A stretch of DNA of 64,000 nucleotides, from NCBI GenBank assembly GCA_963713825.1, contig CAVQNG010000011.1, positions 1 through 64,000 of the forward strand, in the 5' to 3' direction. How positions within the stretch are numbered: the stretch's first letter is position 1; the number at the start of each line of letters is the position of its first letter. This DNA is from an uncultured Acidobacteriota bacterium (GTDB lineage: Bacteria > Acidobacteriota > Thermoanaerobaculia > Multivoradales > JAHEKO01). The position numbers and the translations under genes were made by a program. The notes below the pieces were generated by a model. That model did not search any database, was not told where the DNA came from, and saw only the letters and a list, made by a program, of their open reading frames with translations. This document shows positions 4,008-9,650 of the stretch, piece by piece.

Positions 4008-4070
4008 CCGAGGGGCACTCCCCCCGCCGTGGGACCCTAGAGGGCTAGCAGCCAGGTTCAGGACATATCT
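4008..4070. repeat. Scaffold motif 1, copy a
   Basis: CCG-AGGGGCACTCCCCCCGCC..GGGACCCTAG-GGGCT..CAGGTTCAGGACATATCT aligns with 6731-6800. Confidence 0.8.
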
Positions 4071-4128
4071 GGCGCGTGGTCGCTCTGTGCGTCGAATCTG
4101 ACCGCAACGAATCAGGTATTCTCAGCTA

Positions 4129-4611
4129 GTGACAGACTCCGGGATCGAGAGCCAGATAGACCGATTCGACTCAGCTGTTAAGAGACTCGAAGACAGCCTG
4201 GTTGCCTTGCAGCAGGAGTCATTCTTGGCGAGGCTGAATGGGTGGTCTCCCAGGGACATCTTGGCCCACCTGATCGGATGGAATCATCACGTAATCGAAG
4301 GTGGCAGACAGATCCAGCTGGGAGAGTTGCCTTTCTACGATATCGACCCGGGCGAGAACTACAGCAAGGTCAACGAAGCCATCGTTCAGAAGATCAGCGC
4401 AACTGACCGACAGGTTCTCATCAAAGAACTCCACTCTTCTGCGAACGACCTCAAAGAGTACCTAAGGTCCCTCGAGCCCGCGGCATGGGCCAAGGACATC
4501 GGTGTGCGACATGGCGGATCGACAGTGACTATTCGAGACACCGTCGACGAGTTGATCGAGGACTACGATCACCATCGCATACAGGTCGAGGATTGGGCAA
4601 TGACGAAGTGA
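4129..4611 (+). CDS. DinB-like / ClbS-DfsB family four-helix-bundle protein
   Basis: GWSPRDILAHLIGW and EDYDHHR motifs typical of the DinB superfamily. Confidence 0.8.
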   Translation: MTDSGIESQIDRFDSAVKRLEDSLVALQQESFLARLNGWSPRDILAHLIGWNHHVIEGGRQIQLGELPFYDIDPGENYSKVNEAIVQKISATDRQVLIKELHSSANDLKEYLRSLEPAAWAKDIGVRHGGSTVTIRDTVDELIEDYDHHRIQVEDWAMTK

Positions 4612-4658
4612 GTCAGCAAGCCGGCCCCCAACGATCCGCTCGATGCCAGCCACACCGC

Positions 4659-4851
4659 TCTAGGTCATCCATTTCCAGTCACACTCAGTACCCAAGGCCC
4701 GATCTCATCTAGCCAAGGGTCTAGCCCTCACAGCCCAAATTCTCCCCTCAGTACGGCCTGAGACAGGTTGGGACAGGGTGTGGTGCCGTACCTTGAACTC
4801 ATAGCCAACTGGCTATCGACCCACCCGTTGGGGTGTGTCATTCCTCGGTCG
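4659..4851. repeat. Scaffold motif 2, copy a
   Basis: Starts TCTAGGTCATC; core 4744-4781 matches 7355-7392 at 35/38; tail GCCAA..GCTATCGA similar to 7486-7538. Confidence 0.8.
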
Positions 4852-4971
4852 ATCCTGTTATGCCCTTTACTGCCTTGTCTAAGGCAATCCTGTAGAAGGG
4901 CATGGAAGCAAGACAGGCAGGCTGCCTGAGTAAAGAGACGGTCGGTACTTTTGATCACGGAGGACTCTCCA

Positions 4972-6663
4972 TTGAAACACAAGAACTTTCTTACTGTCAT
5001 GCTGTTTCTGGTTCCGCTCTCGGGCCAGGCAGGTTCCTTCGACATCGGCACTTTTCCCGCAGACTTGGCGAGTCCAGGCTTGAACCTGGTGGTCGACAGT
5101 ACGCTCGACTTGGGGGACGCCAACCCTGGCGACGGCATTTGCGCTACGGCCACAGCGACCTGCACCTTGCGAGCTGCAATCGAAGAGACGAATGTTTATG
5201 AAGAAGGTCTCGACTCGATCATTCTGCCAGCAGGCACCTACGTGATCGCATCGAGCTTGAGCGTGGAGGATGACTTGGGTGTGTTCGGTGAGGACAGAGA
5301 CACCACCATTATCGATGCCACTGCGGCGGACTCTGCCTTCAGTTCGCCAGGCGCGAACGTGACTATCGATTCGGTTACGATCCAAGGAAGCGCTTTGGCC
5401 GGGATCGATATAAGAGGCGGGGTCTTCACCGTAGCCTCTTCCAGAGTCCGAGGCAGCTCGGGAAATGGAATCAGATGTCAGGGAGGCGGAACGGCAAGGA
5501 TCCTTAACAGCGAAGTGTTGGAGAACAGTCTTGAGGGAGTTAGGTTGTTGGGCTGCTCCTCTCAGATCATCGGCAGCTCGATCTCTCACAACCAGGGCCG
5601 CGGTATCGCAATCTTTGAGACCTTCCAAGCGTCAGCTACTCTTGAGAATAGCTATGTCGCGGAGAATCTCGGGGGCGGCCTGCTCGCGAGCGGGATGGTG
5701 GGGTTCGAGTTGCGATCCACTACCGTGACCAACAACACGGCTGCGAATGGTGCTGGGTTTGCCTCCATTGGCTCTGCGTATCTGATCTCTGTCAACAGCA
5801 CGTTCAGCGGGAATCGGGCGACCGGCCATGGTGGAGGAATCTACATCTGGAATTACGAGTCTGGTGGCCAGGGTTGGGTCACTAATACAACAATCGCCGA
5901 GAATGTTGCCGATAGTGACGCCGATGGAGTCGGAGATGGAGGCGGGATCTTCTTGGAGGATGACCCCTTGGATAACTACTTCTCCATTAATGGGACACTC
6001 CTGGCCAAGAACGAAGATCTGTCCGGCGAAGCTCCCGATTGTGGTGGTCCGGGTGCCCTATTTTCGGAGGGATTTAATCTCATCGGGGACACCACTGGGT
6101 GCTCGATCGTCGGGGACACTTCGACCAACATCACAGACGTGGACCCCAAACTCGGCCCTCTGGCCGATAACGGTGGATTGACACCCACGCATAGGCCTCT
6201 GGTTCAAAGCCCTGCCATCAACGTAATCCCTTCAGATGACTGCACGGTGGAAGTCGACCAAAGAGGAGTTCTTCGTCCCCAAGGGCCGGGATGCGATATC
6301 GGCTCAGTGGAGGTGGGTCTCTCGTGCATCGGCTTCAAACCACCGCTGAACAAAAAGCAGGTGCTTCTCAGAGGTCCGTACCGCAGGCTCCCTGTGAAGG
6401 CTAGGATCGTAGACGCCGATGGAACGATTCAAACTGGCCAGGATCTCCTGACCGCGCCAGTCGTGCGAATTGTGAAGCTCCCAGCCTCAGATCCAGGCTA
6501 TGAGTTGGGCAGCTTCCGAATCAAGAAGAATGAAGTCTGGCGAGCAGTAGTATCGGCCCAGGATTTCCCAGAGAAAGGCAGGTATCTTCTTTTCATGGAT
6601 ACAGGAGACAGTTCCGAGTATCTACTCGACCAAACCTGCAGTGTGATCGTGAATCGACGCTAG
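4972..6663 (+). CDS. CSLREA-domain secreted beta-helix protein with choice-of-anchor Q and PxKF-like C-terminal domain
   Basis: GGAGG RBS 4959-4963 before TTG; VDSTLDLGDANPGDGICAT..CTLRAAIEETN; beta-helix repeats; DPKLGPLADNGGLTPTH..DQRG..CDIGSVE; GFKPPL..LPVKA tail. Confidence 0.85.
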   Translation: MKHKNFLTVMLFLVPLSGQAGSFDIGTFPADLASPGLNLVVDSTLDLGDANPGDGICATATATCTLRAAIEETNVYEEGLDSIILPAGTYVIASSLSVEDDLGVFGEDRDTTIIDATAADSAFSSPGANVTIDSVTIQGSALAGIDIRGGVFTVASSRVRGSSGNGIRCQGGGTARILNSEVLENSLEGVRLLGCSSQIIGSSISHNQGRGIAIFETFQASATLENSYVAENLGGGLLASGMVGFELRSTTVTNNTAANGAGFASIGSAYLISVNSTFSGNRATGHGGGIYIWNYESGGQGWVTNTTIAENVADSDADGVGDGGGIFLEDDPLDNYFSINGTLLAKNEDLSGEAPDCGGPGALFSEGFNLIGDTTGCSIVGDTSTNITDVDPKLGPLADNGGLTPTHRPLVQSPAINVIPSDDCTVEVDQRGVLRPQGPGCDIGSVEVGLSCIGFKPPLNKKQVLLRGPYRRLPVKARIVDADGTIQTGQDLLTAPVVRIVKLPASDPGYELGSFRIKKNEVWRAVVSAQDFPEKGRYLLFMDTGDSSEYLLDQTCSVIVNRR

Positions 6664-6692
6664 AAAACTCTCTCTTCCTACCAAGACCTCAA

Positions 6693-6720
6693 GCCGGGCC
6701 TCGCGCCCGGCCTTTTCTTC
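6693..6720 (+). terminator. Intrinsic terminator, scaffold copy 1
   Basis: GCCGGGC-CTCGC-GCCCGGC hairpin + CTTTTCTT; identical 20-mer at 8413 and 9482. Confidence 0.85.
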
Positions 6721-6730
6721 GCCTGGCCAG

Positions 6731-8440: not shown

Positions 8441-8446
8441 TCTAGT

Positions 8447-8603
8447 TAGCCCCCCCGGGGGTAGACCCCCATCCTCCAGGGACCCTGTGGGGCTGGAACA
8501 AGTACCGAGAAATAGGCACCTCACCCTCGCTCCGCAACGACTTCGGCAAGGCAGTTCTGACGTCTTGGACCACCCTAGCAAGGGCCTAGAACCTAGCCCG
8601 AAA
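8447..8603. repeat. Scaffold motif 1 copy c followed by degenerate motif 2 (empty slot)
   Basis: TAGCCCCCCCGGGGGTAGACCCCC..CCAGGGACCCTGTGGGGCTG; then TAGGCACCTCACCCTC (cf. 7264) and CTAGCAAGGGCCTAGAACCTAGCCCG (cf. 4709, 7321). Confidence 0.65.
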
Positions 8604-8731
8604 GATCTCTCGCTGAGGAGCTCAACAGCCCCTTTTTTGCCGGTCAGAAAAGCCTGCTTTAGGCGTTCTTCACTCAGCATCCTTCACCCGGTTTCTGGAC
8701 ATTCAGTTCGGGCAGGAGTAGCGTCTTAGAT

Positions 8732-8822
8732 ACCTCGACAAGGGTAATCCCGAGGGAAACCTCGGGGACACAAAGCTACGGGTCCTCGCCATCTAGACAA
8801 GACTGCCGGGCTGCCGAAGGGT
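8732..8822 (+). ncRNA. c-di-GMP-I (GEMM) riboswitch
   Basis: G-ACAA-GGGTAAT, P2 CCCGAGG-GAAA-CCTCGGG, GACACAAAGC junction (U22-A45 covariation vs Vc2 C-G), P3 ending GCCGGGCTGCCGAAG; G at the G20-equivalent position (8743). Confidence 0.88.
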
Positions 8823-8859
8823 GGATACCCCTACCAACCTTTTTTCAAGGAGGTATGCA

Positions 8860-9408
8860 ATGAACAGAGATGGCATGTCGCGTGTCGCAGTGATTCTGGC
8901 AATCATCTGTCTCATCGCAGGGTCCTCTGCCCTTGTTGCCGGACAGTCCGAGGGCAAGGCTACCCCGAAGAAGATGAACGGAACCTGGGGCTCTGTCGTC
9001 ACCGTCCCTCCGAATGACATTCTGGGAAACCCGGTAGACATGGATCTCCCGGAGCTGGACACGTTTTCAACCGCCGGCACGGTGATCACCAGTTCCGGGG
9101 CGACGGTCATGCCGCTGGTCTTGGATCAGGGCGACTTTCTTGCGTCGGTGGGTATTGGACAGGGCACCTGGAAGTTTCTCGGTGGACGCCGCTTCGTCAT
9201 GACGCAGTGGAGGTTTCTCACTGACATCAACTCTGGGGAGCCCTTCGGCTACATCAAGGTACTTGCAGAGTGGAGACTCGTGAACAAGAATCTCGCTTCT
9301 GGTGACTACGAGGTGCAGATTCTGGGACTCGACATGATGACACCCTTTACTTCCGGTGGCGAACCGGCCGCTGTTGGCGGCCCCTTCACGATGTGGCGAT
9401 TGCCCTAG
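8860..9408 (+). CDS. Secreted hypothetical beta-barrel-like protein under riboswitch control
   Basis: AAGGAGGT RBS; signal peptide; GTWGS..GIGQGTWK motifs reminiscent of lipocalin-like barrels. Confidence 0.75.
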   Translation: MNRDGMSRVAVILAIICLIAGSSALVAGQSEGKATPKKMNGTWGSVVTVPPNDILGNPVDMDLPELDTFSTAGTVITSSGATVMPLVLDQGDFLASVGIGQGTWKFLGGRRFVMTQWRFLTDINSGEPFGYIKVLAEWRLVNKNLASGDYEVQILGLDMMTPFTSGGEPAAVGGPFTMWRLP

Positions 9409-9481
9409 TAGGAACGCAATGAGCGGAGCCCTAGGCTTCGACGTCTGGGCTTGCCTAACACTTCTTCTGGTTCCAAACACA

Positions 9482-9510
9482 GCCGGGCCTCGCGCCCGGC
9501 CTTTTCTTTC
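9482..9510 (+). terminator. Intrinsic terminator, scaffold copy 3
   Basis: GCCGGGCCTCGCGCCCGGCC + TTTTCTTT, followed by TAGCCCCCGGGGGTAG (motif 1 partial copy d). Confidence 0.85.
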
Positions 9511-9650
9511 TAGCCCCCGGGGGTAGGCCCAGTCCCTGTTAGACCCTGACTTGCCCCCAAAGACGCAAATCCCCCACAAGACTCTACTCTCAGATCACTC
9601 AGATCTGCTAAGTAAAGTCTATAGTTTTAGTGGTTTACTAGGATGACGAA

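What the first reader, a model, noticed from the sequence alone, without database searches (positions are those of the whole stretch)
4008..9547. Cassette-like array: three tandem modules share a non-coding scaffold but carry unrelated genes
Seen: island B repeats the order [motif 1] slot A [motif 2] slot B [identical terminator GCCGGGCCTCGCGCCCGGCC + T-tract] three times. Module 1 (4008-6720) carries a DinB-like gene and a CSLREA protein. Module 2 (6731-8440) carries a STAS gene (opposite strand) and an FGE-sulfatase. Module 3 (8447-9510) has an empty slot A and a riboswitch-controlled secreted protein. A fourth motif-1 start (TAGCCCCCGGGGGTAG, 9511) precedes the att site. The genes show no homology to each other while the scaffold does: CAGGTTCAxGACATATCT 17/18, motif 2 core 35/38, terminator 20/20. 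Established: this is not an integron (no complete attC, no intI), CRISPR or pdif array. Inference: a non-autonomous gene-capture or cassette system, or tandemly integrated mini-elements with two variable cargo slots, mobilised in trans at tRNA-Lys.
Basis: partly seen in the sequence, partly recalled or inferred. Interest (0 to 1): 0.85.

Follow-up and report, generated by a model that had tools for sequence, protein, structure and literature searches.

The report
Repeated regulatory scaffold around unrelated genes
Three neighbouring gene units in an uncultured sediment bacterium share the same terminator and upstream control sequences, which look like reused regulatory parts of a c-di-GMP-controlled gene family and not like a new mobile cassette system.

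Summary
The repeated scaffold is real and not chance. The terminator 20-mer is exact three times. Motif 1 is about 79% and motif 2 about 78% identical between modules. The cargo genes are unrelated (DinB_2, beta-helix, STAS, FGE-sulfatase, and a riboswitch-controlled secreted protein).

It is not a genome-wide REP. The hairpin has 9 exact copies in 5.4 Mb and motif 2 has 5.

The parts read as ordinary regulatory pieces of a lineage-specific family of single-gene units. Each unit has a conserved upstream region (motif 2), a promoter/leader that usually carries a c-di-GMP-I riboswitch, a gene and a strong intrinsic terminator. Elsewhere in this genome motifs 1 and 2 are contiguous and lie upstream of riboswitches. 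In two genera motif 2 precedes at least nine unrelated gene families. Module 1 carries a decayed riboswitch.

Relatives hold the same genes in other combinations, at ortholog-like divergence (78-86%).

I found no linked recombinase, no integron integrase, no attC core and no target duplication.

Best reading: old regulatory modules reused and shuffled by homologous recombination (promoter and riboswitch reuse). A dedicated capture system is not excluded but has no support. Interest is moderate.

The parts
3355..3404 (-). Left copy of the tRNA-Lys 3' end (att-like repeat) that bounds island B
   Evidence: family D1: 3 copies of 50 nt at 3355, 9648 and 15114. The intact tRNA-Lys(ttt) is at 15117-15192.
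4008..4070 (+). Motif 1, copy 1. It is partial: no terminator and a degenerate palindrome. It ends in CAGGTTCAGGACATATCT.
   Evidence: (D4). nhmmer of junction J2 hits 4008-4081.
4129..4611 (+). Slot A of module 1: a DinB_2 superfamily gene
   Evidence: Pfam PF12867, E 1.7e-09. Related copies are 83% identical in G001, 79% in G002 and 78% in G004.
4673..4796 (+). Motif 2, copy 1 (core 4744-4781, three 10-nt ACAG(G) direct repeats)
   Evidence: Model R1 scores 84.6 bits.
4797..4971 (+). 5' leader of module 1: a decayed c-di-GMP-I aptamer and hairpin leader, homologous to the intact riboswitch leaders on C12 and C30
   Evidence: Alignment A2. nhmmer hits C12 561-710 and C30 6037-6162. No Rfam hit at E<=1.
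4951..6663 (+). Slot B of module 1: a secreted right-handed beta-helix protein with the CSLREA-type motif. The probable start is TTG at 4972.
   Evidence: Pfam Beta_helix, 1.1e-14. The start codon and signal peptide were read.
6693..6719 (+). Terminator 1 (7-bp all-GC stem, 5-nt loop, T-tract), 29 nt after the stop codon
6731..6816 (+). Palindrome CTAGCCCCCGGGGGG plus motif 1, copy 2
   Evidence: (D4, D5, D10, I18).
6818..7210 (-). Slot A of module 2: a STAS-domain gene (GTG start at 7210). It has no close relative in the genus.
   Evidence: Pfam STAS, 5.3e-07. The best other match in 6 genus genomes is 31% identical.
7285..7411 (+). Motif 2, copy 2 (core 7355-7392)
   Evidence: Model R1 scores 93.4 bits. 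Region 7264-7305 aligns with the uninterrupted C13 sequence, with 0 of 2000 shuffles reaching the score.
7558..8385 (+). Slot B of module 2: an FGE-sulfatase family gene with a lipoprotein-like signal
   Evidence: Pfam PF03781, 1.2e-43. 81% identical to G002:C468.
8413..8439 (+). Terminator 2, 27 nt after the stop codon
8447..8589 (+). Palindrome plus motif 1, copy 3, running without a slot-A gene into the 5' half of motif 2
   Evidence: nhmmer of the C13 unit hits 8410-8589, E 4.4e-11. BLAST hits to C13 and C15.
8696..8724 (+). Promoter-like element TGGACA-N17-TAGCGT directly upstream of the aptamer (an inference)
   Evidence: The same element lies before 5 of 32 own-genome aptamers and before relatives' aptamers. 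Coordinates. The generic sigma-70 scan did not flag it.
8734..8845 (+). c-di-GMP-I-GGC riboswitch aptamer (8734-8819) with a terminator-like expression platform (8820-8845)
   Evidence: Rfam RF03167, 59.5 bits. Terminator-like site at 8820-8835 plus a T-run.
8860..9408 (+). Slot B of module 3: a secreted protein with no Pfam family
   Evidence: 85% identical in G002:C173, where it directly follows the flank gene.
9482..9508 (+). Terminator 3
   Evidence: 73 nt after the stop codon.
9510..9557 (+). Fourth palindrome plus partial motif 1, with no gene behind it
   Evidence: D5, D10; 9481-9546.
9648..9697 (-). Middle copy of the tRNA-Lys 3' end, the border between islands B and A
   Evidence: family D1.

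Best explanation
Island B holds three head-to-tail single-gene transcription units of a lineage-specific family.

A full unit reads as follows:
- the intrinsic terminator of the previous unit;
- a spacer (palindrome plus motif 1);
- a conserved upstream control region (motif 2, whose core is three 10-nt ACAG(G) direct repeats);
- a promoter/leader that usually carries a c-di-GMP-I riboswitch;
- one gene, mostly for a secreted or surface protein;
- the same strong terminator hairpin.

Module 3 is a working example. Module 1 keeps only a decayed aptamer. Module 2 has lost the aptamer. DinB and STAS are small separate genes that sit in the spacer between motif 1 and motif 2.

The scaffold is similar because these regulatory parts share descent and are under selection. 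The hairpin stem is almost invariant, whereas the rest is about 78% identical.

The cargo is unrelated because units and parts of units have been gained, lost and recombined over a long time. This happened through homologous, unequal or Campbell-type recombination between the repeated regulatory parts. In other words, it is promoter, riboswitch and terminator reuse.

No dedicated site-specific capture machinery is needed.

Shown: the parts, their copy number, their contexts, the unrelated cargo, the variation between species, and the absence of recombinase, attC core and target duplication.

Inferred: recombination as the mechanism, motif 2 as a protein-binding or upstream promoter element, and the TGGACA-N17-TAGCGT promoter.
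For: 1. Terminator. The three hairpins are the top terminator-like sites. In the own genome the hairpin starts 24-31 nt after a stop codon in 10 of 12 copies examined (9 exact, 3 with 1-3 mismatches). Of the 6 one-mismatch variants in the genus, 4 change the loop, 1 changes the last base, which lies outside the 7-bp stem, and 1 (C34 in the own genome) breaks a stem pair. The exact hairpin plus T-tract also occurs once each in 8 unrelated lineages. None of those has motif 2 nearby, so it is a generic strong terminator.

2. Motifs 1 and 2 are contiguous, with no slot A, in C13:11630-11857 and C15:9582-9784. There they lie upstream of riboswitch-controlled genes.

3. Of the 15 aligned motif-2 copies from 5 genomes in 2 genera, 8 lie 47-79 nt upstream of an Rfam-level c-di-GMP-I aptamer.

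4. The genes downstream of motif 2 are unrelated: Beta_helix, FGE-sulfatase, PKD/FIMAH, Laminin_G_3 (twice), FG-GAP, Lcl_C, LVIVD, Sulfatase and several with no family.

5. The genome has 32 c-di-GMP-I-class aptamers, many in tandem arrays.

6. Module 1's leader aligns with the intact riboswitch leaders of C12 and C30.

7. Shuffling at the repeated parts. The C13 and C15 leaders are 86% identical over 371 nt but drive unrelated genes. C13 has one extra gene-plus-riboswitch unit relative to C15, and the breakpoints fall at the aptamer. In G002, DinB is followed directly by the FGE gene, and the extra 2.8 kb in the window is bracketed by the two motif-2 copies.

8. Age. DinB, FGE and the module-3 gene are 78-86% identical to relatives. 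The core flanks are 73-79%. Island A is 98%.

9. No recombinase is linked and there are no capture-site features.
Against: - Two different genes (DinB forward, STAS reverse) sit at the same point of the spacer, just after ...ATATCT. Random recombination does not predict this.
- The 20-mer hairpin is exact in 20 copies across 6 genus genomes and in 3 copies in a second genus, while neighbouring sequence is about 78% identical. Purifying selection on a terminator may explain this, but I did not show it.
- The spacing from stop codon to hairpin is oddly constant at 24-31 nt.
- A 16-18 bp palindrome follows the T-tract at four junctions, including the gene-less end of the island. It has no assigned role.
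- 7 of the 15 motif-2 copies have no detectable riboswitch, so the link to c-di-GMP is not strict.
- Motif 2 shows no RNA covariation. Its role as a DNA site is an inference only.
- No transcript data were available.
Confidence: 0.6

Rival explanations
1. A dedicated gene-capture or cassette system. The hairpin and/or the CTAGCCCCCGGGGGTAG palindrome are recombination sites used by a recombinase encoded elsewhere. Modules are inserted and excised one at a time, in an integron-like or pdif-like way.
For: - The part order is the same in all three modules, and a fourth, gene-less junction lies at the island end.
- The cargo is unrelated.
- Module content differs between species.
- Two different genes sit at the same spacer position.
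- The hairpin is strikingly invariant.
- A perfect palindrome is typical of a dimer binding site (general knowledge).
Against: - No tyrosine recombinase lies on C11, C13, C15 or C16. There are 5 matches (4 full-length genes and one fragment) in the genome, all elsewhere.
- No integron integrase scores over the cut-off.
- The junctions have no paired GTTRRRY core.
- No repeat flanks the slot-A genes: 731 and 1187 of 2000 shuffles reach the observed score.
- Units carry their own promoter and riboswitch, unlike integron cassettes.
- Cargo divergence is ortholog-like, which gives no sign of recent movement.
- Synteny breakpoints in the paralogous arrays fall at the riboswitch, not at the palindrome.
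- The palindrome is missing from most units that carry the hairpin.
Confidence: 0.1
2. The roughly 250-nt intergenic block (terminator, palindrome, motif 1, motif 2) is itself a small non-autonomous mobile element. It would resemble Correia or ERIC elements, inserting between genes and bringing a terminator and a promoter with it.
For: - The block is contiguous in C13 and C15.
- It provides terminator-like and promoter-proximal functions.
- Known small elements can carry promoters (PMC3575422, text read).
Against: - There are only 5-7 copies, all inside the riboswitch arrays or island B.
- Copies are only about 78% identical, so there has been no recent burst.
- I saw no terminal inverted repeats or target duplication.
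- The parts also occur separately. The hairpin occurs alone in 5 of 9 exact own-genome copies. Motif 2 occurs without motif 1 in G004, G003, G051 and G052.
Confidence: 0.12
3. An artefact: a mis-assembled or chimeric MAG contig stitched together at short repeats.
For: - The genome is a 38-contig assembly with several 77-92% identical paralogous contigs.
- The repeats are the kind that break or mis-join assemblies.
Against: - Estimated contamination is 0.27%.
- Error-free public contig pieces of run X1 cover 3795-4147, 4346-4955 and 9265-9544, which include junction J1, motif 2 copy 1 and terminator 3 with its palindrome. X1 may be the source sample, so this is not independent.
- The block [exact terminator][motif 1][DinB] recurs in a different species, G001.
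Confidence: 0.04

Closest known systems
Putative mobile promoters, or promoter reuse (Matus-Garcia, Nijveen and van Passel, NAR 2012). I read part 1 of 2 of the text of the commentary PMC3575422, not the NAR paper.
   Same: Highly similar upstream non-coding sequence lies in front of unrelated genes, within a genome and between genera. Those authors note that riboswitches can travel with such sequences. The mechanism of spread is unknown there too.
   Different: Here the reuse covers a whole expression frame: upstream region, promoter, riboswitch and terminator. The units stand in tandem arrays. The window pair (78% over 96 nt) falls just under their 80% over 50 nt criterion. The C13/C15 pair (86% over 371 nt) passes it.
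Integron gene cassette arrays
   Same: Head-to-tail array of unrelated single genes separated by a repeated hairpin-forming junction. Content varies between relatives.
   Different: There is no IntI and no attC-type site with R/L boxes. The junction hairpin is a perfect 7-bp GC stem with a T-tract. Units have their own promoters and riboswitch, and one gene is inverted.
c-di-GMP-I (GEMM-I) riboswitch regulons, Rfam RF01051 and RF03167
   Same: Many aptamer copies per genome stand in front of diverse, often extracellular, proteins. Module 3 is a regular member.
   Different: The shared sequence extends well beyond the aptamer, to motif 2, motif 1 and the terminator. Two of the three window modules no longer have a detectable aptamer.
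Small repeat elements that carry regulatory signals (Correia, ERIC, REPIN), as named in PMC3575422
   Same: Repeated intergenic sequence that can form hairpins and supply promoter or terminator activity.
   Different: Those elements have tens to hundreds of copies with defined ends. Here there are 5-9 copies, no inverted ends and no target duplication.
Tandem genomic islands at tRNA genes
   Same: Two islands are delimited by three copies of the tRNA-Lys 3' end. Island A has a RepA_C gene and is 98% identical in a sister species.
   Different: Island B has no integrase or replication gene. Its genes are as old as the core genome. In G002 its module-3 gene lies next to the flank gene with no att copy.

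Membership tests
Integron | An integron integrase (IntI) gene | tested here: not met
   TIGR02249 searched over the whole genome. The best hit is 95 bits against a cut-off of 265, and it is a C-terminal fragment on another contig. 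No PF00589 hit lies on C11.
Integron | attC sites: imperfect inverted repeats with GTTRRRY/RYYYAAC core sites at cassette borders | tested here: not met
   A regex over the four junctions found 0 sites in J1 and J2, and single unpaired sites in J3 and J4. The junction hairpin is a perfect 7-bp stem with a T-tract. No attC covariance model was run.
REP/BIME/MITE-type genome-wide repeat | High copy number in many unrelated intergenic contexts | tested here: not met
   The hairpin 20-mer is exact 9 times in 5.4 Mb. Motif 2 has 5 copies. Motif 1 occurs only on C11, C13 and C15.
Intrinsic (Rho-independent) terminator | A GC-rich hairpin followed by a T-run, downstream of and co-oriented with a gene | tested here: met
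   7 GC pairs, a 5-nt loop and a T-tract. The hairpin starts 24-31 nt after a stop codon in 10 of 12 own-genome copies. Termination itself was not measured.
c-di-GMP-I riboswitch unit | An aptamer that reaches the Rfam gathering score upstream of the gene | tested here: inconclusive
   Module 3: met, 59.5 bits against 59 for RF03167 and 57.3 against 35 for RF01051. Module 1: only a decayed homologue, with no Rfam hit at E<=1. Module 2: none.
Putative mobile promoter (criteria as given in PMC3575422) | At least 80% identity over at least 50 nt upstream of genes that are not paralogues | tested here: inconclusive
   Window modules 1 and 2: 78% over 96 nt, and 92% over the 38-nt core. C13 against C15: 86% over 371 nt, ending at or within 40 nt of the start codons of unrelated genes.
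Integrative element at a tRNA gene | Direct repeats of the tRNA 3' end at both borders | tested here: met
   3355-3404 and 9648-9697.
Integrative element at a tRNA gene | Its own integrase or recombinase | tested here: not met
   No PF00589 match on C11. Pfam on the island ORFs shows none. Serine recombinases and DDE enzymes were not searched genome-wide.

The most novel reading that the evidence does not exclude
The invariant hairpin at the 3' side and the motif 2/riboswitch leader at the 5' side act as portable boundaries of single-gene expression units. These bacteria would then actively exchange units between arrays, islands and species. That would be an integron-like cassette economy, run either by an unrecognised recombinase acting at the palindrome or hairpin, or by homology alone. 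Any captured gene would be placed directly under c-di-GMP control.
Probability: 0.12. Interest if true: 0.8.

Novelty: new variant of a known kind. Interest (0 to 1): 0.4.

Why it matters
If the reading is right, this locus shows how a second-messenger regulon can grow. It grows not by evolving new sites in front of each gene, but by reusing a ready-made expression frame for unrelated, mostly secreted proteins. The frame consists of an upstream control region, a promoter, a c-di-GMP riboswitch and a terminator.

The work also yields a candidate new cis-regulatory element. Motif 2 is about 115 nt long, with three 10-nt direct repeats. It is found in 5 of 45 genomes searched, in 2 of 20 genera of the family. 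Its binding factor and role could be tested.

The locus is also a caution. Arrays that look like cassettes can be made of ordinary regulatory parts.

Tried and rejected
- Genome-wide REP idea: rejected on copy number.
- Decayed-gene idea: rejected. tblastx of the scaffold pieces hits only the pieces themselves and each other, in several frames and on both strands alike. No frame is open in all 15 motif-2 copies.
- Structured RNA for motif 2: only a 5-bp hairpin was predicted, with a covariation term of -0.07 kcal/mol. I did not pursue it.
- Target-site duplication around DinB and STAS: none found.
- Sigma-70 consensus scan: 0 sites, against 2.1 expected from shuffles. This is uninformative for this lineage.
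- Rfam at E<=1 on 3300-9800 found only the one riboswitch, tRNA fragments, and weak SorX-like hits that are just the terminators.
- Public runs: no RNA holder was listed.
- Laid contigs. All joints had sides under 30 nt. They linked one scaffold part to another, for example motif-2 core to riboswitch leader, or aptamer end to terminator. One record went from 9501 back to 8678. The tool warns that such joints in metagenomes often come from other organisms or repeats. I therefore read them neither as circular junctions nor as evidence against them. Summed depth in run X3 peaks on the scaffold parts (174-320) against 2-20 on the cargo. That fits many units sharing these parts, but it is not a copy number.
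- Literature (all search listings only): the search 'Thermoanaerobaculia' plus 'riboswitch' gave 0 papers. 'c-di-GMP-I-GGC' gave 3 papers, none on arrays. 'c-di-GMP riboswitch' plus 'tandem' plus 'Acidobacteria' gave 1 paper. 'identical terminators' or 'unrelated genes' gave nothing relevant.
- Not done: structure prediction, large protein-homology searches, complex prediction, a genome-wide search for serine or DDE recombinases, and an attC model.
I did not ask for any paper supplements.
- G006 is an unpublished genome. It appears only as a counted genome without a relevant match in the tallies, and as the auto-fetched locus L014, which I did not use.

Full report
SETTING

The window is contig C11 (bases 1-64000) of a 5.4-Mb, 38-contig genome with 96% completeness and 0.27% contamination. 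A tRNA-Lys(ttt) gene lies at 15117-15192 on the minus strand. Its last 47-50 nt are repeated at 9648-9697 and 3355-3404.

Two islands therefore stand in tandem.
- Island A (9698-15113) carries a RepA_C fragment, a Na+/H+ exchanger, DUF454 and Zincin_1.
- Island B (3405-9647) is the finding.

One record that holds the same scaffold is titled as a Thermoanaerobaculia MAG. I use that class name only tentatively.

- The terminator 20-mer is exact at 6693, 8413 and 9482. The 18-mer of motif 1 matches 17 of 18. The 38-mer core of motif 2 matches 35 of 38.
- Longer alignments give 79% over 87 nt for terminator plus motif 1, and 78% over 96 nt for motif 2.
The riboswitch is a c-di-GMP-I-GGC aptamer at 8734-8819.
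- The three hairpins are the best terminator-like sites of the region.

NOT A GENOME-WIDE REPEAT AND NOT A DEAD GENE

- The hairpin is exact 9 times in the genome: three on C11, two on C13, one on C15, two on C16 and one on C3. Three more copies have 1-3 mismatches.
- Motif 1 occurs only on C11, C13 and C15. Motif 2 has five copies, on C11 (two), C13, C15 and C12.
- tblastx finds no coding relative, and no frame is open across the copies.

WHAT THE PARTS ARE

On C13 (11630-11857) and C15 (9582-9784) the terminator or stop codon, the palindrome, motif 1 and motif 2 follow each other with no gene in between. They lead into a c-di-GMP riboswitch and a gene. Motif 1 plus motif 2 is therefore one intergenic region of about 220 nt. 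DinB and STAS interrupt that region in the window.

Motif 2:
- I aligned 15 copies from the own genome, G003, G004, G051 and G052.
- Eight of them lie 47-79 nt upstream of an aptamer that passes Rfam's threshold.
- The core reads as three 10-nt direct repeats: ACAGCCTGAG, ACAGGCTGGG, ACAGGGTGTA.
- RNAalifold gives no covariation support. I therefore read it as a DNA site upstream of the promoter. This is an inference.

Promoter:
- Between motif 2 and many aptamers lies a conserved TGGACA-N17-TAGCGT element. It ends about 9 nt before the aptamer.
- It is at 8696-8724 in the window, before 5 of 32 own-genome aptamers, and before several aptamers in relatives.
- It is a plausible promoter, but this is also an inference.

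Riboswitches and cargo:
- The genome has 32 aptamers of this class, with three leader types, many in tandem arrays on C13-C16.
- Module 1's leader (4797-4971) aligns with the intact riboswitch leaders of C12 and C30. It has lost the second half of the aptamer.
- The genes behind motif 2 belong to at least nine unrelated Pfam families, or to none.

The hairpin:
- It sits 24-31 nt after stop codons of unrelated genes in 10 of 12 own-genome copies.
- It is exact in all six genomes of the genus (20 copies) and in 2 of 3 genomes of a second genus. It is absent from the other 18 genera of the family (36 of the 45 genomes searched). The reversed control pattern gave 0 hits everywhere.
- Of the 6 one-mismatch variants in the genus, 4 change the loop, 1 changes the last base outside the stem, and 1 breaks a stem pair.
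- The same hairpin plus T-tract occurs once each in 8 unrelated lineages that lack motif 2. The sequence as such is therefore a generic strong terminator.

RELATIVES

- G001 has [gene][exact hairpin][motif 1][DinB][truncated aptamer][gene].
- In G002, motif 1 and DinB are followed directly by the FGE-sulfatase gene. The 2.8 kb that the window has in addition (4662-7457) begins and ends with a motif-2 copy. It holds the two genes that have no close relative in the genus, namely the beta-helix and STAS genes. This is the pattern that recombination at motif 2 would leave, but I cannot show the direction of the change.
- Also in G002, the module-3 riboswitch and gene (85% identical) directly follow the conserved flank gene, with no att copy.
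- G004 has DinB, motif 2 and a module-3-like leader in an array that ends with the hairpin (one loop change) next to a tRNA-Pro. At the tRNA-Lys locus, G004 has island A at 98% identity but a sulfatase gene in place of island B.
- The cargo genes are 78-86% identical to relatives, and the core flanks are 73-79%. The modules are therefore old residents that have been rearranged. They are not recent arrivals.
- Within the genome, C13 has one more gene-plus-riboswitch unit than C15, with breakpoints at the aptamer. The same 371-nt leader (86% identical) drives a PKD/FIMAH gene on C13 and a Laminin_G_3 gene on C15.

AGAINST A DEDICATED CAPTURE SYSTEM

- No tyrosine recombinase lies on the four array contigs.
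- No integron integrase is present.
- There is no attC core pattern.
- No repeats flank the slot-A genes.
- The palindrome is absent from most hairpin copies.
- Read and contig data gave no usable junction evidence.

STILL ODD

- Two different genes sit at the same spacer position.
- The stop-to-hairpin spacing is constant.
- The hairpin is nearly invariant.
- The palindrome has no explanation, including the gene-less copy at 9510.

These points keep a capture or exchange mechanism alive at about one in eight to one in ten.

VERDICT

The best reading is tandem transcription units of a c-di-GMP-linked family. Their regulatory frame has been reused for unrelated genes through recombination between the repeated parts. 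This is a new variant of known promoter and riboswitch reuse (PMC3575422, read). The library searches I ran found no description of it for this lineage.

Noticed in passing
window 9698-15113; L015 (G004:C42) 4154-9957: Island A is 98.4% identical over 4060 nt to a sister species whose flanking core genes are only 73-79% identical. That species has a further RepA_C-bearing island between it and tRNA-Lys. This points to recent horizontal transfer of an element that has no tyrosine integrase.
   Followed up: partly
window 3511-3541 and 9780-9799: Short direct repeats lie just inside the att copies: GTTGCACCC-like three times, and ATTTGTCCCC twice. They look like iterons or arm-type binding sites of the integrated elements.
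   Followed up: no
L002 (G000:C13) about 33106-33307 in contig coordinates; L004 (G000:C16) 16455-16656: A repeat of about 200 nt lies at the ends of C13 and C16. It has more than 60 copies at 75-92% identity across the genome, looks MITE-like, and probably breaks the assembly.
   Followed up: no
L001 17732-18714, with paralogues on C14, C15 and C16: A sigma-70 family gene (regions 2 and 4) sits directly behind a c-di-GMP-I-GGC aptamer. The region recurs, with its aptamer, on three further contigs (C14, C15, C16) at 77-90% identity; Pfam was run on the C13 copy only. It is a possible regulator of the array genes.
   Followed up: no
own genome, 32 aptamers: Three distinct leader families lie upstream of the c-di-GMP aptamers: the AGGAGTAGCGT type, the TTGTCACGTTTGTGTCC type and the CCTACCC..GGGGTGTGTC hairpin type. 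Motif 2 is found combined with each of them.
   Followed up: partly
L001 about 11560-11599; L003 about 9545-9585; L018 6940-6984: Unrelated array proteins end in the same C-terminal motif, GFESGDT(S/T)AWS...V. It may be a sorting signal.
   Followed up: no
own genome hairpin copies: The terminator hairpin starts 24-31 nt after the stop codon in 10 of 12 copies, although the spacer sequences are unrelated. In G001 the gap is 7 nt.
   Followed up: no
G000:C3:1156518-1156682: A 159-aa open frame matches only the last 55 positions of the integron-integrase model, at 95 bits against a cut-off of 265.
   Followed up: no
L037-L039 and L041-L045: The exact 27-nt hairpin plus T-tract occurs once each in 8 unrelated lineages (Alphaproteobacteria, Verrucomicrobiota and others), far more often than chance predicts. 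This suggests convergence on one very stable terminator.
   Followed up: partly
window 14672-15100: An open frame next to the tRNA-Lys gene begins like a DDE transposase by my reading, but it has no Pfam hit.
   Followed up: no
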